64,000 nt of DNA, from assembly GCF_030013595.1 (NCBI RefSeq), contig NZ_CP122768.1; one strand, 5' to 3'. Origin of the DNA: Escherichia coli. GTDB lineage: Bacteria; Pseudomonadota; Gammaproteobacteria; Enterobacterales; Enterobacteriaceae. Positions 8,169 to 49,044 of this stretch are shown piece after piece; the first letter of the stretch is position 1, and every line of letters starts with the position of its first letter. The notes beneath the pieces were generated by a model that was not told the DNA's origin, made no database searches, and was given only the letters and a program-made list of their open reading frames with translations. Both the position numbers and the translations under genes were made by a program.

Positions 8169-8222
8169 ACAATATGTACCTCCGGTGTACATATTACATG
8201 ATTGAAATGAACCTTCAAGACA

Positions 8223-8243
8223 CTTGTACCTTAACGGTACAAG
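8223..8243. promoter_or_regulatory. Putative OR operator palindrome between cro and cI
   Basis: cttgtacc-ttaa-cggtacaag inverted repeat; further TGTAC half-sites at 8175 and 8186. Confidence 0.45.
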
Positions 8244-8258
8244 GGTTTTAATTTCGTT

Positions 8259-8933
8259 ATGAAAACAATCCATGACATCCGGCGGTCTAACGCCCGAAAA
8301 CTGAGAGATGGTGTTGGAGGGAATTCTTCCTTTGCCACTATGATTGATCGCGAGCCAACCCAGACCAGCAGGTTTATGGGAGATGGTGCTACTAAAAATA
8401 TCGGTGACAGCATGGCACGACACATCGAAAAATGTTTCGACCTGCCTGTCGGATGGCTCGATCAAGAACACCAGACAACGAACATCACAAAAAAACCTGA
8501 TGTTTCAATCACTAATAAACAAATCACATTAGTCCCTGTCATATCATGGGTACAGGCCGGAGCATGGAAAGAAGTTGGATATTCTGAGGTTGATTTGAGC
8601 ACAGCAGAAACGTATCCCTGCCCTGTACCCTGTGGGGAAATGACTTATATCTTGCGGGTGATAGGTGATTCAATGATTGATGAGTACCGCCCGGGAGACA
8701 TGATTTTTGTCGATCCTGAAGTACCTGCCTGCCACGGTGACGACGTTATTGCATTGATGCACGATACAGGTGAAACCACCTTCAAAAGGTTGATAGAAGA
8801 TGGGACACAGCGTTATCTCAAAGCGTTAAACCCAAACTGGCCTGAGCCTTACATTAAGATCAACGGTAATTGCTCTATAATTGGAACTGTGATTTTCTCA
8901 GGAAAACCAAGAAGATACAAAATCAAAGCCTAA
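8259..8933 (+). CDS. CI-like prophage repressor (HTH plus S24 LexA-like peptidase), CohE-like
   Basis: 224 aa; C-terminal S24 region ...VIGDSMIDEYRPGDMIFVDPEV...; divergent from cro. Confidence 0.8.
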   Translation: MKTIHDIRRSNARKLRDGVGGNSSFATMIDREPTQTSRFMGDGATKNIGDSMARHIEKCFDLPVGWLDQEHQTTNITKKPDVSITNKQITLVPVISWVQAGAWKEVGYSEVDLSTAETYPCPVPCGEMTYILRVIGDSMIDEYRPGDMIFVDPEVPACHGDDVIALMHDTGETTFKRLIEDGTQRYLKALNPNWPEPYIKINGNCSIIGTVIFSGKPRRYKIKA

Positions 8934-8946
8934 TCAATGTTTATGA

Positions 8947-8968
8947 ACCTGCTTCGGCAGGTTTTTTT
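8947..8968 (+). terminator. Rho-independent terminator after the cI-like gene
   Basis: acctgc-ttcg-gcaggt hairpin followed by tttttt. Confidence 0.6.
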
Positions 8969-8972
8969 ATAC

Positions 8973-9000
8973 TTGACAATGTACCCACGAGATACATAAT
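8973..9000 (+). promoter_or_regulatory. Putative pL-like sigma70 promoter with operator repeats
   Basis: TTGACA (8973-8978), 16-bp spacer, CATAAT (8995-9000); direct repeats atgtacccacgaga / atgtacccaagaga share the TGTACC operator half-site. Confidence 0.45.
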
Positions 9001-9081
9001 GTACCCAAGAGAAACAACAAACAGGCAGGACGCCCACGAAGTAGCCGCCTGGGGCATATGAAGTCCAGGATGATTCGTTAG

Positions 9082-9110
9082 CAACAAAAAAGCGCCCTAC
9101 AGGACGCTTA
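9082..9110 (-). terminator. Rho-independent terminator for the minus-strand moron
   Basis: On the minus strand: agcgtcc-tgta-gggcgct hairpin followed by tttttgttg, 38 nt past the stop at 9148. Confidence 0.45.
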
Positions 9111-9147
9111 GCTCTTTAACAATCTGGATATCCACAACAGTAGTAAT

Positions 9148-9639
9148 CTACAGATTGCCGTTAAGTTTTCTGGACAACTCCTCAATGGATGGAGGCGATA
9201 CGTAATCCGGATTTTTATTCATCAGAAACTTATTTTCACAGTGGAGGCACCTGCTTTTATGAAAAAGCTCATCTTCGCTAACCGGGAATGGTTGAAGTAT
9301 CGATACTATCTTTTGTCCAAAACATTTTGGGCAAAGATGCATGGTTATGCTGCCACCGTTCACGATTACCTCCTTCGAGTATACAAAAGTACCCGACTCA
9401 AGTTGGTTAAGGATATAGCCTTCCGTCTGAGCCTCAAAGTTTTCGAATTCTGCAATTTTAGCTTTGAGAGAAGCATTTATTTCTTGATAAGAGCCCACCA
9501 GTTCAACGAGAGACACGCATTCGCGCTGAATAGACGCAAGCTTTGAGTTCAGCTCACCAATAGCCGCATTTACTTCAGCTTGAGTTTTTGCCTCGTTCAT
9601 TAGTTTTGCAATCTGGGCTGTTTCACGAATAGCCGTCAT
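9148..9639 (-). CDS. Hypothetical coiled-coil / C4 zinc-ribbon protein (moron between cI and early-left operon)
   Basis: 163 aa from Met at 9639; N-terminal coiled-coil-like region, C-terminal CPKC...(26)...CLHC; opposite to pL transcription; AT-rich; ORF track extends implausibly to 9927. Confidence 0.5.
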   Translation of the reverse strand: MTAIRETAQIAKLMNEAKTQAEVNAAIGELNSKLASIQRECVSLVELVGSYQEINASLKAKIAEFENFEAQTEGYILNQLESGTFVYSKEVIVNGGSITMHLCPKCFGQKIVSILQPFPVSEDELFHKSRCLHCENKFLMNKNPDYVSPPSIEELSRKLNGNL

Positions 9640-9949
9640 TGCTGCCGTTAATTCAGCGATCACATTGAATACTCTTATTGTTGTTGGGGATATCCAGATT
9701 AACCGAATCCTTGTTGTTGGGGAATAACCAGGTCCACCTCGCCTGATGTGGCTAAAAGCAGGCACATAACAGCTAAGTATTTTCAACCAGAGAGAATCCT
9801 TAGCGTTGTGGTGAATGCGGCTCAGCGCACGCGGGTTAAGGTTGAGGCTGACAGTCGACCTTCTGTGGATACCCACCCGCCTGGTGTGCAACCTTCGCCA
9901 GGCACCGGGAGGCACCCGGCACCACAACTTTATGCTGTGTGTAGTCCTG

Positions 9950-9996
9950 GCGGTACCAGTTTGTACCCTTGCTTCCGGCTGGTACCGTCCTTTTTT
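9950..9996 (+). terminator. Rho-independent terminator in GC-rich non-coding region
   Basis: cggtaccag ... ctggtaccg 9-bp stem followed by tcctttttt. Confidence 0.5.
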
Positions 9997-9997
9997 G

Positions 9998-10084
9998 CAA
10001 AACAGAGAAGAGCATCACCGGACGACGGGCTCATAACCCAATCCATCCGGGCGGCTGCCACCGCAGGTGTTCTTCTCTGTTTTG
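9998..10084. repeat. Long imperfect inverted repeat / RNA stem
   Basis: caaaacagagaagagca and tgttcttctctgttttg (17 bp, one mismatch) flanking ~53 bp of GC-rich sequence. Confidence 0.4.
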
Positions 10085-10133
10085 TGGAGAAACCAACCGA
10101 CCTTGCAGGGTCGATATGATGAGGAGCAGCAAA

Positions 10134-10496
10134 ATGGCTAGCGAACGCAGTACTGATGTGCAGGCATTTATCGGGGAGCTGGACGGCGGCGTATTTGAAA
10201 CCAAAATCGGCGCAGTTCTCAGTGAGGTCGCTTCCGGTGTGATGAACACGAAAACCAAAGGGAAGGTCTCACTCAATCTGGAAATCGAACCGTTTGATGA
10301 GAACCGTGTGAAAATCAAACACAAACTCTCATATGTTCGCCCAACTAACCGCGGGAAAATTTCCGAAGAAGACACCACCGAAACGCCGATGTATGTCAAT
10401 CGCGGTGGTCGCCTGACTATTCTGCAGGAAGACCAGGGACAATTACTGACTCTTGCCGGTGAACCTGACGGAAAACTCCGCGCAGCAGGTCGTTAA
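10134..10496 (+). CDS. YfdP-like prophage protein
   Basis: 120 aa; GAGGAG SD 7 nt upstream of ATG; first gene of the early-left operon, gene order as in CPS-53 yfdPQRST. Confidence 0.6.
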   Translation: MASERSTDVQAFIGELDGGVFETKIGAVLSEVASGVMNTKTKGKVSLNLEIEPFDENRVKIKHKLSYVRPTNRGKISEEDTTETPMYVNRGGRLTILQEDQGQLLTLAGEPDGKLRAAGR

Positions 10497-12708: not shown

Positions 12709-13079
12709 TGGAGCCATACAGCCTCACACTCGATGAGGCCTGTCAGTTTCTTAAGATATCCAGACCAACCGCCACCAACTGGATACGAACAGGCCGCCTA
12801 CAGGCAACACGTAAAGATCCAACCAAGCCAAAATCTCCTTACCTCACAACACGGCAAGCTTGCATTGCGGCGCTTCAGTCTCCGCTGCATACTGTCCAGG
12901 TGAGCGCGGGTGATGGCATAACAGAGGAAAGAAAATGTCACTCTTCCGCAGAAATGAAATATGGTATGCCTCGTATTCGCTCCCGGGCGGGAAACGAATT
13001 AAGGAATCTCTTGGCACAAAGGACAAGCGGCAAGCTCAGGAGTTGCACGACAAGCGAAAAGCAGAACTCTGGCGAGTAG
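12708..13079 (+). CDS. Putative excisionase (AlpA/Xis-like HTH); 3' end uncertain, frame overlaps int
   Basis: Starts TAATG-coupled to yfdT; N-terminal HTH-like segment [28 protein letters not shown]; frame stays open to 13079. Confidence 0.45.
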
Positions 13080-14098
13080 AAAAGCTAGGGGATTTACCTG
13101 ATGTCACTTTTGAAGAGGCCTGCCTAAGATGGCTTGAGGAAAAAGCTGATAAAAAATCTCTCGATTCAGATAAAAGCCGGATTGAGTTCTGGCTTGAACA
13201 TTTTGAGGGTATAAGGCTTAAAGATATCTCGGAGGCAAAGATTTACTCTGCTGTAAGCAGAATGCATAACAGAAAGACGAAAGAAATATGGAAACAGAAA
13301 GTTCAGGCCGCCATCAGGAAAGGTAAAGAACCGCCTGTTTATGAACCAAAGCCAGTATCAACTCAGACAAAGGCAAAGCATCTTGCCATGATAAAGGCCA
13401 TTCTCCGTGCTGCAGAACGCGACTGGAAGTGGCTGGAAAAAGCGCCTGTCATCAAGATACCAGCGGTCAGAAACAAGCGAGTCAGATGGCTGGAAAAGGA
13501 GGAAGCAAAACGCCTTATTGATGAGTGCCCCGAACCACTGAAATCTGTCGTCAAGTTTGCGCTGGCAACTGGTCTGAGAAAGTCGAACATCATAAATCTG
13601 GAATGGCAACAAATCGACATGCAGCGACGAGTTGCCTGGGTGAATCCAGAAGAGAGCAAATCAAACCGCGCCATTGGTGTGGCGCTGAACGATACCGCCT
13701 GTAAAGTGTTGCGTGATCAAATAGGCAAGCATCACAAATGGGTGTTTGTACATACCAAGGCGGCTAAGCGAGCAGATGGAACATCAACGCCTGCGGTCAG
13801 GAAGATGCGCATCGACAGCAAGACATCATGGCTATCAGCTTGTCGTCGTGCAGGAATTGAAGATTTCCGTTTCCATGACCTCAGACACACCTGGGCAAGC
13901 TGGCTGATCCAGTCAGGCGTCCCATTATCTGTGCTTCAGGAAATGGGCGGATGGGAGTCCATAGAAATGGTTCGTAGGTATGCTCACCTTGCGCCTAATC
14001 ATTTGACAGAGCATGCAAGGAAAATAGACGACATTTTTGGTGATAATGTCCCAAATATGTCCCACTGTGGAATTATGGAGGATATAAAGAAGGCGTAA
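12935..14098 (+). CDS. intD: Tyrosine integrase (IntD-like), adjacent to argU
   Basis: 387 aa; C-terminal catalytic region ...[17 protein letters not shown]...VRRYAHL; ends 16 bp from the tRNA 3' end. Confidence 0.85.
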
Positions 14099-14113: not shown

Positions 14114-14190
14114 TGGCGCGCCCTGCAGGATTCGAACCTGCGGCCCACGACTTAGAAGGTCGTTGCTCTATCCAACTGAGCTAAGGGCGC
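14114..14190 (-). tRNA. argU: tRNA-Arg (anticodon UCU), argU
   Basis: Reverse complement GCGCCCTTAGCTCAGTTGGATAGAGCAACGACCTTCTAAGTCGTGGGCCGCAGGTTCGAATCCTGCAGGGCGCGCCA, 77 nt, cloverleaf-compatible. Confidence 0.95.
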
Positions 14191-35600: not shown

Positions 35601-35642
35601 GTCATACCACTCGCCTGATTATTTTTAGCTATGTTGGATTTT

Positions 35643-35669
35643 GCCACGGTTTATACCGTGGCTTTTTTT
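35643..35669 (+). terminator. Rho-independent terminator after allE
   Basis: gccacggt-ttat-accgtggc followed by ttttttt. Confidence 0.6.
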
Positions 35670-35684
35670 GCGGTAAATTCAGGT

Positions 35685-48633: not shown

Positions 48634-48695
48634 TGGGCGGTATTCTGAAACGGCGATTGTCGTGAGAACAAAATGGTTGCACCAGAATACAGATA

Positions 48696-48733
48696 TAAAA
48701 AAACCGACATGACAGTCGGTTTTTTTATTTTTT
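48696..48733 (+). terminator. Rho-independent terminator after mnmH
   Basis: aaaaaaaccgacatgacagtcggtttttttatttttt; a degenerate second copy lies at 49174-49203. Confidence 0.6.
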
Positions 48734-49044
48734 CCGCCCAAGACTTGGTGGTTCCGGGCAGAAATGAAACAGTCCTCATCTAGCAAGTGAATTATAAGTC
48801 AGGATGCCTACATATTCAAACAGCTATGTTGGCGATACAATCCCGACGCTAGTAGTGATACTGCCTCAAGGGATTACCGCAGTGCGGAAAAGTACTTTTA
48901 AGTCCTGGTCAGGATACAGGTGGTGCTGATTCTGGTGCTCTAATTTGGAGAGAGGCAGTCCTCATCTAGCACATGAAGAAAATCATAGTTACAGGCAACG
49001 TAAGGGTAAGCTGTGATTGTCTTTCTCCCTTAAGGGAGCAACGG

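What the first reader, a model, noticed from the sequence alone, without database searches (positions are those of the whole stretch)
9082..9930. Oppositely oriented coiled-coil/zinc-ribbon moron between prophage repressor and early-left operon
Between the cI-like repressor (+) and the yfdP-like operon (+) sits an AT-rich gene on the minus strand with its own intrinsic terminator. It encodes a ~160-aa protein with an N-terminal coiled-coil-like region and a C-terminal CxxC...(26)...CxxC zinc ribbon. This slot next to the immunity region is where lambdoid phages carry superinfection-exclusion or abortive-infection genes such as rexAB and sieB. I do not recognise the protein. It is the best candidate in the window for an uncharacterised phage-defence or regulatory function.
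Basis: partly seen in the sequence, partly recalled or inferred. Interest (0 to 1): 0.6.

Follow-up and report, generated by a model that had tools for sequence, protein, structure and literature searches.

The report
Rip1-family prophage defence gene cassette
The unrecognised minus-strand gene beside the prophage repressor is a diverged member of the recently solved Rip1 family, prophage proteins reported to detect an invading phage's small-terminase ring and form a pore, and it sits in a swappable, inverted-repeat-bracketed slot that holds other unknown genes in related prophages.

Summary
Window 9148..9663 (-) encodes a 171-aa protein (GTG start). It has two long N-terminal helices, a C-terminal four-cysteine beta domain and an intrinsic terminator at 9109-9090. 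The 259-aa ORF reaching 9927 is an artefact.

The protein is not an orphan. A profile of its homologues matches PDB 9OOX, [quoted passage not shown], over its full length (E 6e-20). The AlphaFold model matches the same chains (Foldseek probability 1.0). HK446 Rip1, HK620 HkaP, Pseudomonas DMS3 gp25 and this protein all fall in phrog_1244. All four genes lie opposite to their neighbours. The most likely function is therefore a lysogen-expressed sensor of a superinfecting phage's small-terminase ring that kills by pore formation. This rests on homology and was not tested for this allele, which is 27% identical to HK446 Rip1.

Beyond the finding, the gene occupies a conserved module on the + strand: a PL-like promoter, a hairpin, an exact rrn-type boxA, a 26-nt inverted repeat, the cargo, the repeat's partner, and an STnc100/PasD-like sRNA. 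Related prophages carry at least 14 cargo length classes in this slot, from about six protein families. Several are Rip1 alleles that vary mainly in the C-terminal part.

Verdict: new member of a known kind, in an undescribed slot.

The parts
9148..9663 (-). Rip1-family CDS, 171 aa with a GTG start. It has an N-terminal helical hairpin and a C-terminal Cys4 beta/zinc-ribbon domain.
   Evidence: ORF and RefSeq annotation. phrog_1244 at E 9e-60. Profile match to PDB 9OOX Rip1 at E 5.9e-20. Foldseek probability 1.0. AlphaFold pLDDT 89.9. dN/dS 0.14.
9080..9109 (-). Intrinsic terminator of the cargo gene: stem-loop 9109..9090 followed by a T-run. On the + strand the same hairpin lies immediately 5' of boxA.
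   Evidence: Terminator scan. It is shared by prophages that carry other cargo in the slot.
9111..9122 (+). Exact rrn-type boxA (GCTCTTTAACAA) on the + strand, about 110 nt downstream of the PL-like promoter.
   Evidence: It is the only exact match in 64 kb. The extended string GCTCTTTAACAATCTGG is present in 105 of 131 fetched loci. Its identity as a Nus-factor site is inferred from the known rrn/lambda boxA consensus, which I cite from my own knowledge.
9121..9146 (.). Left arm of the 26-nt inverted repeat that brackets the cargo.
   Evidence: the repeat finder pair I1, 85% complementary. The 20-nt core matches only these two places in the window, against 0.01 expected by chance.
9675..9700 (.). 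Right arm of the inverted repeat, just upstream of the gene's start codon.
   Evidence: The arms stay complementary around different cargo in 29 sequence variants.
9705..9722 (+). A second, direct copy of the right-arm motif at 33-nt spacing. It belongs to the conserved right flank.
   Evidence: Direct-repeat family D1. It is also present in L006, L007 and L130.
8973..9016 (+). PL-like promoter (TTGACA-16-CATAAT, 11 of 12 matches) overlapped by two 19-nt repeats that carry the ATGTACCC motif. The motif also occurs in the repressor-cro intergenic region. This promoter would transcribe antisense through the cargo.
   Evidence: Promoter scan and repeat D2. Four of the six WTGTACCY matches in 64 kb lie in these two regulatory regions. 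The operator role is inferred.
9775..9998 (+). STnc100/PasD-like prophage sRNA that ends in a + strand hairpin and T-run. RefSeq annotates this region as a frameshifted 'hypothetical protein', equivalent to e14 ymfH. It provides context and is not part of the gene.
   Evidence: Rfam RF02076 at 40.3 bits (gathering score 47), E 5.5e-7, full model length. The region occurs in 3007 of 5426 E. coli genomes and is annotated as frameshifted.
8259..8933 (+). LexA/cI-type repressor (ymfK-like), with its terminator at 8945-8964. Context.
10134..10496 (+). yfdP, the first gene of the early-left operon (yfdP-yfdQ-yfdR-yfdS-yfdT-xis-int-tRNA-Arg). Context.

Best explanation
The gene encodes a Rip1-family ('ring interacting pore') prophage defence protein. 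Shown here: it is homologous over its full length, and in predicted fold, to HK446 Rip1. That protein was solved by cryo-EM bound to the small terminase of phage T6, with 12 Rip1 chains in the entry. Shown here: the N-terminal helices are the most conserved part, the Cys4 domain and tail are the most variable, there is no transmembrane segment, and the gene is under purifying selection. Inferred from the family: in the lysogen the soluble protein is made at a low level. When a superinfecting phage produces its small-terminase ring, the C-terminal domains dock on the ring, the protein oligomerises, and the N-terminal helices assemble into a membrane pore. The pore kills or depolarises the cell before progeny are released, which amounts to abortive infection. 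Inferred from the anatomy: the gene lies antisense inside the leader of the repressor-controlled early-left transcript. Its expression should therefore be favoured while PL is repressed and opposed by convergent transcription when the prophage is induced, which would help spare the prophage's own packaging. The slot itself is an expression platform of promoter side, inverted repeat, cargo, inverted repeat and terminator. It accepts alternative cargo genes.
For: - **Sequence match to Rip1.** The profile of 39 homologues matches PDB 9oox_L 'ring interacting pore 1 (Rip1)' at E 5.9e-20 over profile positions 5-152. The entry holds 12 chains of this sequence.
- **Pairwise comparison.** BLASTP gives 27% identity at E 2e-11, and both CxxC motifs align.
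- **Fold match.** The AlphaFold model (pLDDT 89.9) hits only 9oox_L and 9oox_M at probability 1.00, with TM-scores of 0.56 and 0.73. The next hit has E 0.15.
- **Shared PHROG family.** The window protein, HK446 gp37, HK620 HkaP and DMS3 gp25 all fall in phrog_1244.
- **Reported function.** It is also cited as sensing the small terminase subunit.
- **Gene orientation.** In every context examined the gene is oriented against its neighbours: here, HK620 and HK630, HK446, DMS3 and an O157 Rac-like prophage.
- **Conservation pattern.** Mean pairwise identity is 0.63 and 0.58 for the two helices, 0.42 for the zinc-ribbon region and 0.22 for the tail. No hydrophobic segment is present.
- **Selection.** dN/dS is 0.14.
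- **PL-like promoter.** A promoter with operator-like repeats points into the gene.
Against: - Identity to the characterised protein is only 27%, so the trigger could differ.
- No defence assay, expression data or oligomer model exists for this allele.
- PADLOC 2.0, Pfam and NCBIfam give no hit. PADLOC-DB 2.0.0 dates from 2023, before the 9OOX release of February 2026, and none of the three libraries appears to hold a Rip1 model.
- I could not read the primary Rip1 paper. The mechanism rests on a PDB title, a conference summary and a one-line citation.
- No convincing sigma-70 promoter was found for the minus-strand gene (plus manual reading).
- The self-sparing role of antisense PL transcription is pure inference.
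- The prophage's own Nu1-type small terminase lies outside the window. Whether it triggers this protein is unknown.
Confidence: 0.7

Rival explanations
1. The protein has the Rip1 fold but a different trigger or output. This subfamily would recognise another ring-shaped or oligomeric phage protein, such as a portal or another packaging or replication ring. Alternatively it would block the target by sequestration without forming a pore.
For: Identity to HK446 Rip1 is only 27%. The C-terminal domain and tail are the least conserved parts, and several strongly diverged alleles occupy the same slot. This fits changing specificity. Only 124-126 of 164 residues are modelled in 9OOX, so the pore-forming state is not documented in what I could read.
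Against: The N-terminal helices, the presumed effector part, are the best-conserved region across the family, including the match to HK446 Rip1. This argues for a shared output. Nothing in the data points to any particular alternative target.
Confidence: 0.17
2. The protein regulates the prophage's own life cycle or packaging. For example, it could act as a checkpoint on the resident phage's terminase during induction, rather than as a defence against other phages.
For: The gene is embedded antisense in the early-left leader next to the immunity region. In DMS3-like phages it abuts the terminase large-subunit gene. The family's known ligand is a packaging protein.
Against: The slot carries unrelated cargo in otherwise near-identical prophages, so the gene is dispensable for the phage life cycle. 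The solved complex pairs a lambdoid-phage protein with the terminase of an unrelated phage, T6. Rip1 is described as blocking incoming phage.
Confidence: 0.06
3. The inverted repeats mark a transposon-like or invertible DNA cassette. The gene would then be passenger DNA of a mobile element rather than part of a designed expression slot.
For: Inverted repeats of 20-26 nt bracket every cargo class. The trinucleotide AAC lies directly outside both arms.
Against: The unit shared between two different prophage scaffolds runs from 9111 to 9771. It therefore includes boxA on the left and the second repeat and hairpin on the right, well outside the repeats. No transposase or invertase lies nearby, and no inverted orientation was seen among the loci examined. 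The arms stay complementary to each other in classes where their internal palindrome is lost.
Confidence: 0.07

Closest known systems
Rip1 (ring interacting pore 1), gp37 of Escherichia phage HK446; PDB 9OOX, in complex with phage T6 small terminase
   Same: Full-length sequence homology (profile E 5.9e-20), the same predicted fold, the same Cys4 motif positions and the same PHROG (phrog_1244). Size is similar (164 against 171 aa). Both are prophage-encoded and oriented antisense within the early-left region near the immunity genes.
   Different: Identity is 27%. HK446 rip1 lies between N and cIII of a classical N-dependent PL operon and lacks the boxA/inverted-repeat module. The window gene sits directly after the repressor in an e14/CPS-53-type scaffold. 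The trigger specificity of this allele is unknown.
HkaP of phage HK620 and HK630 (annotated as 'putative superinfection exclusion protein')
   Same: Same family (phrog_1244; tblastn 28% identity) and the same antisense placement in the PL operon with a terminator.
   Different: HkaP was never characterised. Its annotation was positional. It has no flanking inverted-repeat module.
gp25 of Pseudomonas transposable phages (DMS3-25, D3112 orf25, MP38 ORF25, JBD30)
   Same: Same family (phrog_1244 at E 3.5e-61; 29% identity). Again the only gene oriented against its neighbours.
   Different: It lies in the late region, between a DNA-binding protein gene and the terminase large-subunit gene, in a Mu-like phage of another host genus.
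Lambda RexAB and lambda/P22 SieB (classical immunity-region exclusion and abortive-infection genes)
   Same: The genomic niche and logic are the same: expression from the prophage and cell killing by membrane damage on superinfection. This comparison rests on my own knowledge of these systems.
   Different: No sequence or fold similarity was detected. RexAB is a two-component system and SieB is a membrane protein, whereas this is a single soluble zinc-ribbon protein.
Other terminase-sensing defences: Avs1-3 (large terminase) and TerI (small terminase)
   Same: They sense a conserved phage packaging protein by direct binding.
   Different: Avs proteins are large STAND NTPases with enzymatic effectors. 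They are unrelated to this protein in sequence, size and architecture.
rRNA operon leaders (boxB-boxA-boxC followed by the long-range RNase III stem that brackets 16S rRNA); compared with the slot, not the protein
   Same: A hairpin is followed by an exact GCTCTTTAACAA boxA, and then immediately by the 5' arm of a long-range helix whose partner lies 530-830 nt downstream. The rrn layout is from my own knowledge.
   Different: The bracketed segment is the antisense of a protein-coding moron, not a structural RNA. Neither Nus-factor binding nor RNase III cleavage was tested.

Membership tests
Rip1 family (HK446 gp37 / phrog_1244) | Full-length sequence homology to HK446 Rip1 | tested here: met
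   Profile match at E 5.9e-20 over positions 5-152 against chain residues 15-160. BLASTP at E 2e-11 with 27% identity. Both proteins fall in phrog_1244.
Rip1 family (HK446 gp37 / phrog_1244) | Same fold as the solved Rip1 chains | tested here: met
   The AlphaFold model (pLDDT 89.9) matches 9oox_L and 9oox_M by Foldseek at probability 1.00, E 4e-7 and 6e-7, TM up to 0.56/0.73. No other hit has E below 0.1.
Rip1 family (HK446 gp37 / phrog_1244) | Four conserved cysteines (CxxC...CxxC) in the C-terminal domain | tested here: met
   C111, C114, C139 and C142 are invariant in 39 homologues. They align with the two CxxC motifs of HK446 Rip1. Metal binding itself was not tested.
Rip1 family (HK446 gp37 / phrog_1244) | Single-gene, prophage-encoded moron transcribed against the surrounding operon | tested here: met
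   Seen in the window, HK446, HK620 and HK630, DMS3 and an O157 Rac-like prophage.
Rip1 family (HK446 gp37 / phrog_1244) | Binds the small-terminase ring as a roughly 12-subunit cap | not testable with these tools
   Known only for HK446 Rip1 with T6 small terminase. No multimer prediction or binding assay was available.
Rip1 family (HK446 gp37 / phrog_1244) | Confers resistance to superinfecting phage through pore formation or cell death | not testable with these tools
   Reported for Rip1 in a conference summary. There are no data for this allele. The sequence has no transmembrane segment, so any pore would have to arise by oligomerisation.
Known defence systems in PADLOC-DB 2.0 / Pfam / NCBIfam | Significant match to a curated model | tested here: not met
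   The best PADLOC hit has E 0.063. No Pfam domain has E <= 0.001. No NCBIfam hit comes near its cutoff. None of these libraries appears to hold a Rip1 model, so the absence says little.
rrn-type boxA / Nus-factor antitermination site (for the slot) | Match to the boxA consensus GCUCUUUAACAA on the transcribed strand, downstream of a promoter | tested here: met
   An exact 12-mer lies at 9111-9122 (+), the only exact copy in the window. It is 111 nt downstream of the -10 element of the PL-like promoter and is conserved across cargo classes and in a second prophage scaffold.
rrn-type boxA / Nus-factor antitermination site (for the slot) | NusB/NusE binding and an antitermination effect | not testable with these tools
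   This requires biochemistry or genetics.
STnc100 / PasD prophage sRNA family (for the neighbouring ymfH-like region) | Rfam RF02076 score at or above the gathering threshold | tested here: not met
   The score is 40.3 bits against a gathering score of 47, although the match covers the whole model at E 5.5e-7 and includes the 3' terminator. I treat the region as a relative, not a confirmed member.

The most novel reading that the evidence does not exclude
The interesting object may be the slot rather than the gene. The slot is a conserved module of about 660 nt in the early-left leader of e14/CPS-53/Rac-type prophages. In it, an rrn-like hairpin and boxA are followed by a long-range helix of 20-26 bp that loops out an antisense cargo gene. 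The helix would form in the PL-direction RNA, and RNase III might process it. This platform would let prophages swap lysogen-expressed defence genes without disturbing early-left expression. It would also switch the cargo off by convergent, Nus-modified transcription on induction. If so, the five or so other unannotated cargo families in the slot are new candidate anti-phage genes: phrog_5286/ECs1072 with phrog_1744, phrog_7681 (secreted), phrog_6315 (membrane), phrog_3983 and a 98-aa protein. The multiple Rip1 alleles with divergent C-termini would then represent a specificity series against different terminases.
Probability: 0.3. Interest if true: 0.65.

Novelty: new member of a known kind. 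Interest (0 to 1): 0.4.

Why it matters
The result gives a probable function to a 'hypothetical protein' carried by about 12% of complete E. coli genomes (649 of 5426), including O157:H7. It also extends to a protein family with about 2,750 representatives at 50% identity, which current defence-finder libraries miss.

The result shows that Rip1-type genes sit in at least four different phage architectures, always against the local direction of transcription.

It also exposes a compact, recognisable slot next to the repressor of very common E. coli prophages. The slot could be mined for further single-gene defences. Its boxA-plus-long-range-helix design could reveal how prophages insulate early transcription from inserted morons.

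Tried and rejected
- **Uninformative library scans.** Pfam, PADLOC and NCBIfam scans of the protein gave only weak coiled-coil noise.
- **The 259-aa ORF (9148..9927).** I rejected it as the gene. Homologues and RefSeq start at 9663, and the upstream part overlaps a conserved + strand element.
- **Literature searches.** Searches for hkaP, phrog_1244, WP_000559922, DMS3-25, 'ring-interacting pore' and HK446 did not find the primary Rip1 paper. One 'Rip1' in a PNAS paper and one in an ammonia-oxidiser phage preprint are unrelated names.
- **Promoter for the gene.** No sigma-70-like promoter was found on the minus strand (plus reading). The promoter remains unidentified.
- **Transposon or invertible-cassette reading of the repeats.** Rejected as the main explanation, because the module shared between scaffolds extends beyond both arms and no recombinase lies nearby.
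- **Independent palindromic protein-binding sites (TGGATATCCA).** Rejected, because several cargo classes lose the palindrome but keep complementarity between the arms.
- **Which strand forms the helix.** G.U against A.C counting (49 against 22 cells) and duplex energies (+ strand more stable in 26 of 29 variants) favour the + strand. Part of this bias follows from the G/T-rich composition of the right arm, so I call it suggestive only.
- **Inverted repeats around other rip1 genes.** None were found around rip1 in HK620, HK446 or DMS3.

Full report
**1. What is at the coordinates**

The window's right-hand 14 kb of prophage ends at int (12935..14098) and tRNA-Arg (14117..14190). Between the LexA/cI-type repressor (8259..8933 +, terminator 8945-8964) and yfdP (10134..10496 +) lies one minus-strand gene. 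A 99.8%-identical E. coli genome annotates it as WP_000559922.1, a 'hypothetical protein' of 516 nt. This maps to window 9148..9663 (-).

The start is a GTG preceded by AAGAG, and all homologues begin MIAEL.... The 259-aa ORF that reaches 9927, which set the finding's upper bound, is an accidental upstream extension. A minus-strand intrinsic terminator lies at 9109..9090. GC content is 0.41-0.44 across the gene and rises to 0.53-0.585 upstream.

The gene is present in 649 of 5426 complete E. coli genomes, nearly always full length. Against the O157:H7 allele, dN/dS is 0.14. It is therefore a real gene under purifying selection.

**2. What the protein is**

Pfam, PADLOC 2.0 and NCBIfam give nothing significant. 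PHROGs places the protein in phrog_1244, 'unknown function' (E 9e-60). A word-indexed search found 123 homologues across Enterobacterales, all unnamed. A profile search of 1.84 billion representatives found 2749 relatives at E <= 0.001.

The decisive result came from the PDB. The profile of 39 homologues matches chain 9oox_L, 'ring interacting pore 1 (Rip1)', at E 5.9e-20 over almost the whole length. The entry holds 12 chains of that sequence.

The AlphaFold model (mean pLDDT 89.9) has helices 2-24 and 28-79, followed by a beta-rich domain. By Foldseek it matches only 9oox_L and 9oox_M (probability 1.00, TM up to 0.56/0.73). The entry is titled 'Cryo-EM structure of the Escherichia phage HK446 Rip1 in complex with the Enterobacteria phage T6 small terminase' and was released on 2026-02-04.

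Pairwise identity is 27%, and both CxxC motifs align. HK446 gp37 (Rip1), HK620 HkaP and DMS3 gp25 all fall in phrog_1244 as well.

**3. What Rip1 is reported to do**

I could not find the primary paper in the held library. Two sources were available:
[quoted passage not shown] - A 2026 preprint cites Rip1 among the systems that sense the small terminase subunit (10.64898/2026.04.30.721860).

The mechanism I assign to the window protein is therefore inferred from family membership. A soluble protein made in the lysogen docks on the small-terminase ring of a superinfecting phage. It then oligomerises and forms a lethal pore.

Three features of the sequence fit this picture:
- There is no transmembrane segment (maximum 19-residue hydropathy 0.85).
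- The two N-terminal helices, rich in Ala, Thr and Gly, are the best-conserved part (mean pairwise identity 0.63 and 0.58).
- The Cys4 region and the tail are the most variable (0.42 and 0.22), as expected for a sensor in an arms race.

**4. Context across phages**

In every context examined, the family member is oriented against its neighbours:
- HK446: between N and the anti-restriction gene (gp36) that precedes cIII in the PL operon.
- HK620 and HK630: the same place, where the original annotators called HkaP a 'putative superinfection exclusion protein'.
- DMS3-like Pseudomonas transposable phages: between gene 24 and the terminase large-subunit gene.
- E. coli O157:H7: beside racR in a Rac-like prophage.
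- This window: directly after the repressor.

This is the classical signature of a moron expressed from the prophage.

**5. The slot (beyond the finding)**

A 26-nt inverted repeat (9121-9146 and 9675-9700, 85% complementary) brackets the coding sequence exactly. Its 20-nt core occurs only at these two places in 64 kb, against 0.01 expected by chance.

Immediately 5' of the left arm, on the + strand, lies an exact GCTCTTTAACAA (9111-9122), the only exact copy in the window. From my own knowledge, this is the rrn-type boxA, the NusB/NusE site. The terminator hairpin precedes it, which gives an rrn-like order of hairpin, boxA and helix arm.

About 110 nt upstream is a strong + strand promoter (TTGACA-16-CATAAT, 8973-9000). 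Two 19-nt repeats carrying ATGTACCC overlap it. Four of the six WTGTACCY sites in the window lie either here or in the repressor-cro intergenic region. I therefore read this promoter as the repressor-controlled PL.

A transcript from PL would run antisense through the cargo. The minimum-free-energy fold of that RNA pairs the two arms.

**6. The slot is a cargo-exchange site**

E. coli genomes with the same flanks carry different genes between the arms. Examples are an ECs1072-family protein with a 68-aa partner, or a secreted 170-aa protein. Homology to the window breaks symmetrically inside the arms, at 9142/9680 and at 9129/9692. e14 itself (ymfJ/ymfI) and one other prophage lack the module.

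A scan of IMG/VR with the right flank returned over 120 loci. Among the 108 that have both flanks there are at least 14 cargo length classes. In all but one minor class, which is a single locus with only a short + strand ORF next to an intact class of nearly the same length, the main cargo ORF is on the minus strand. The cargo types are:
- six classes of Rip1-like alleles of 156-175 aa that differ mainly in the C-terminal part;
- ECs1072 family (phrog_5286) with phrog_1744;
- phrog_7681;
- a membrane protein family (phrog_6315);
- phrog_3983;
- a 98-aa protein.

None of these is in PADLOC, and all are 'unknown function' in PHROGs.

The arms remain complementary in all 29 sequence variants, including classes where the arm sequence itself has changed. 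The duplex is more stable for the + strand RNA in 26 of 29 variants. G.U-type mismatches outnumber A.C-type by 49 to 22. Part of that bias follows from the G/T-rich right arm, so I treat the strand assignment as suggestive.

The unit shared with the O157 Rac-like prophage runs from 9111 to 9771 (93.6% identity). It therefore includes boxA and the sequences to the right of the repeat. This argues against a transposon bounded by the repeats and for a functional module. rip1 genes in HK620, HK446 and DMS3 have no such repeats.

**7. Neighbouring element**

The GC-rich stretch upstream of the gene (9735-10118) is the counterpart of e14 ymfH. It occurs in 3007 of 5426 E. coli genomes, and PGAP usually calls it 'frameshifted'.

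On the + strand, 9775-9998 matches Rfam STnc100 over the full model, including the 3' terminator. The score is 40.3 bits, below the gathering score of 47, with E 5.5e-7. STnc100 and PasD are described as related prophage-encoded sRNAs (bioRxiv 10.64898/2026.05.13.724894). The 'ymfH' reading frame is therefore probably an sRNA gene.

How transcripts from the PL-like promoter pass this terminator to reach yfdP, or whether yfdP has its own promoter, remains unresolved.

**8. Verdict**

The defence interpretation is supported by strong homology to a structurally characterised family, so the gene is a new member of a known kind, not a new system.

The remaining uncertainty concerns this allele's trigger, its expression and its self-compatibility. 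The resident prophage in a near-identical genome is a full lambda-like phage with a Nu1-type small terminase.

The slot architecture and its other cargo genes are the less expected part and deserve experimental follow-up.

Noticed in passing
window 9111-9146 and 9675-9722 (also L006, L007, L130 and about 105 IMG/VR loci): An exact rrn-type boxA is followed by a 20-26-nt inverted repeat that brackets whatever cargo gene sits in the slot. A second, direct copy of the right arm lies 33 nt further on. The whole 9111-9771 module is shared with an O157 Rac-like prophage that has a different repressor.
   Followed up: yes
L006, L007, L010-L129 (slot equivalent to window 9147-9674): At least 14 cargo length classes occupy the same slot, in all but one minor class with the main ORF on the minus strand. 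They include six diverged Rip1-like alleles, ECs1072-family with a 68-aa partner, a secreted 170-aa protein (phrog_7681), a membrane protein of 150-161 aa (phrog_6315), a 167-aa protein (phrog_3983) with a 97-aa partner, and a 98-aa protein. None has a known function or a PADLOC hit.
   Followed up: partly
window 9775-9998 (+); RefSeq pseudo-CDS maps to 9808-10119: The GC-rich ymfH-like region is annotated as a frameshifted hypothetical protein in most genomes. It matches the prophage sRNA family STnc100 (RF02076) over the full model, just under the gathering score, and ends in a + strand terminator. It is probably an STnc100/PasD-type sRNA rather than a protein gene. It occurs in 3007 of 5426 E. 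coli genomes.
   Followed up: partly
window 9998-10084 (+): A 24-nt-arm hairpin (83% complementary, 39-nt loop) lies between the sRNA-like terminator and the yfdP start. Its role is unknown.
   Followed up: no
NZ_AP028094.1 (hit H22), equivalent to window 8900-10200: This genome's copy of the region is 33 bp longer, the same as the spacing of the right-flank direct repeat. This suggests copy-number variation of that repeat.
   Followed up: no
L052 (IMG/VR), slot cargo: A 1-nt shorter copy of the window's allele encodes a Rip1-like protein truncated to 146 aa, just after the second CxxC. It may be an inactivated copy or a sequencing error.
   Followed up: no
L004 3968-4495 (Pseudomonas phage DMS3 gene 25): In DMS3, D3112 and MP38-type transposable phages the Rip1-family gene is the only reverse-oriented gene, and it directly abuts the terminase large-subunit gene. 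This is a suggestive placement for a terminase-sensing protein.
   Followed up: partly
window 35607-35673 (-), 48695-48783 (-), 14117-14190 (-): Three Rfam matches above the gathering score lie elsewhere in the window: sRNA STnc480, antisense RNA AgrB, and the tRNA-Arg that serves as the prophage attachment site.
   Followed up: no
window 8174-8249 and 8978-9016: ATGTACC/TTGTACC half-site motifs cluster in the repressor-cro intergenic region and over the PL-like promoter. They are probably the operators of the ymfK-type repressor.
   Followed up: partly
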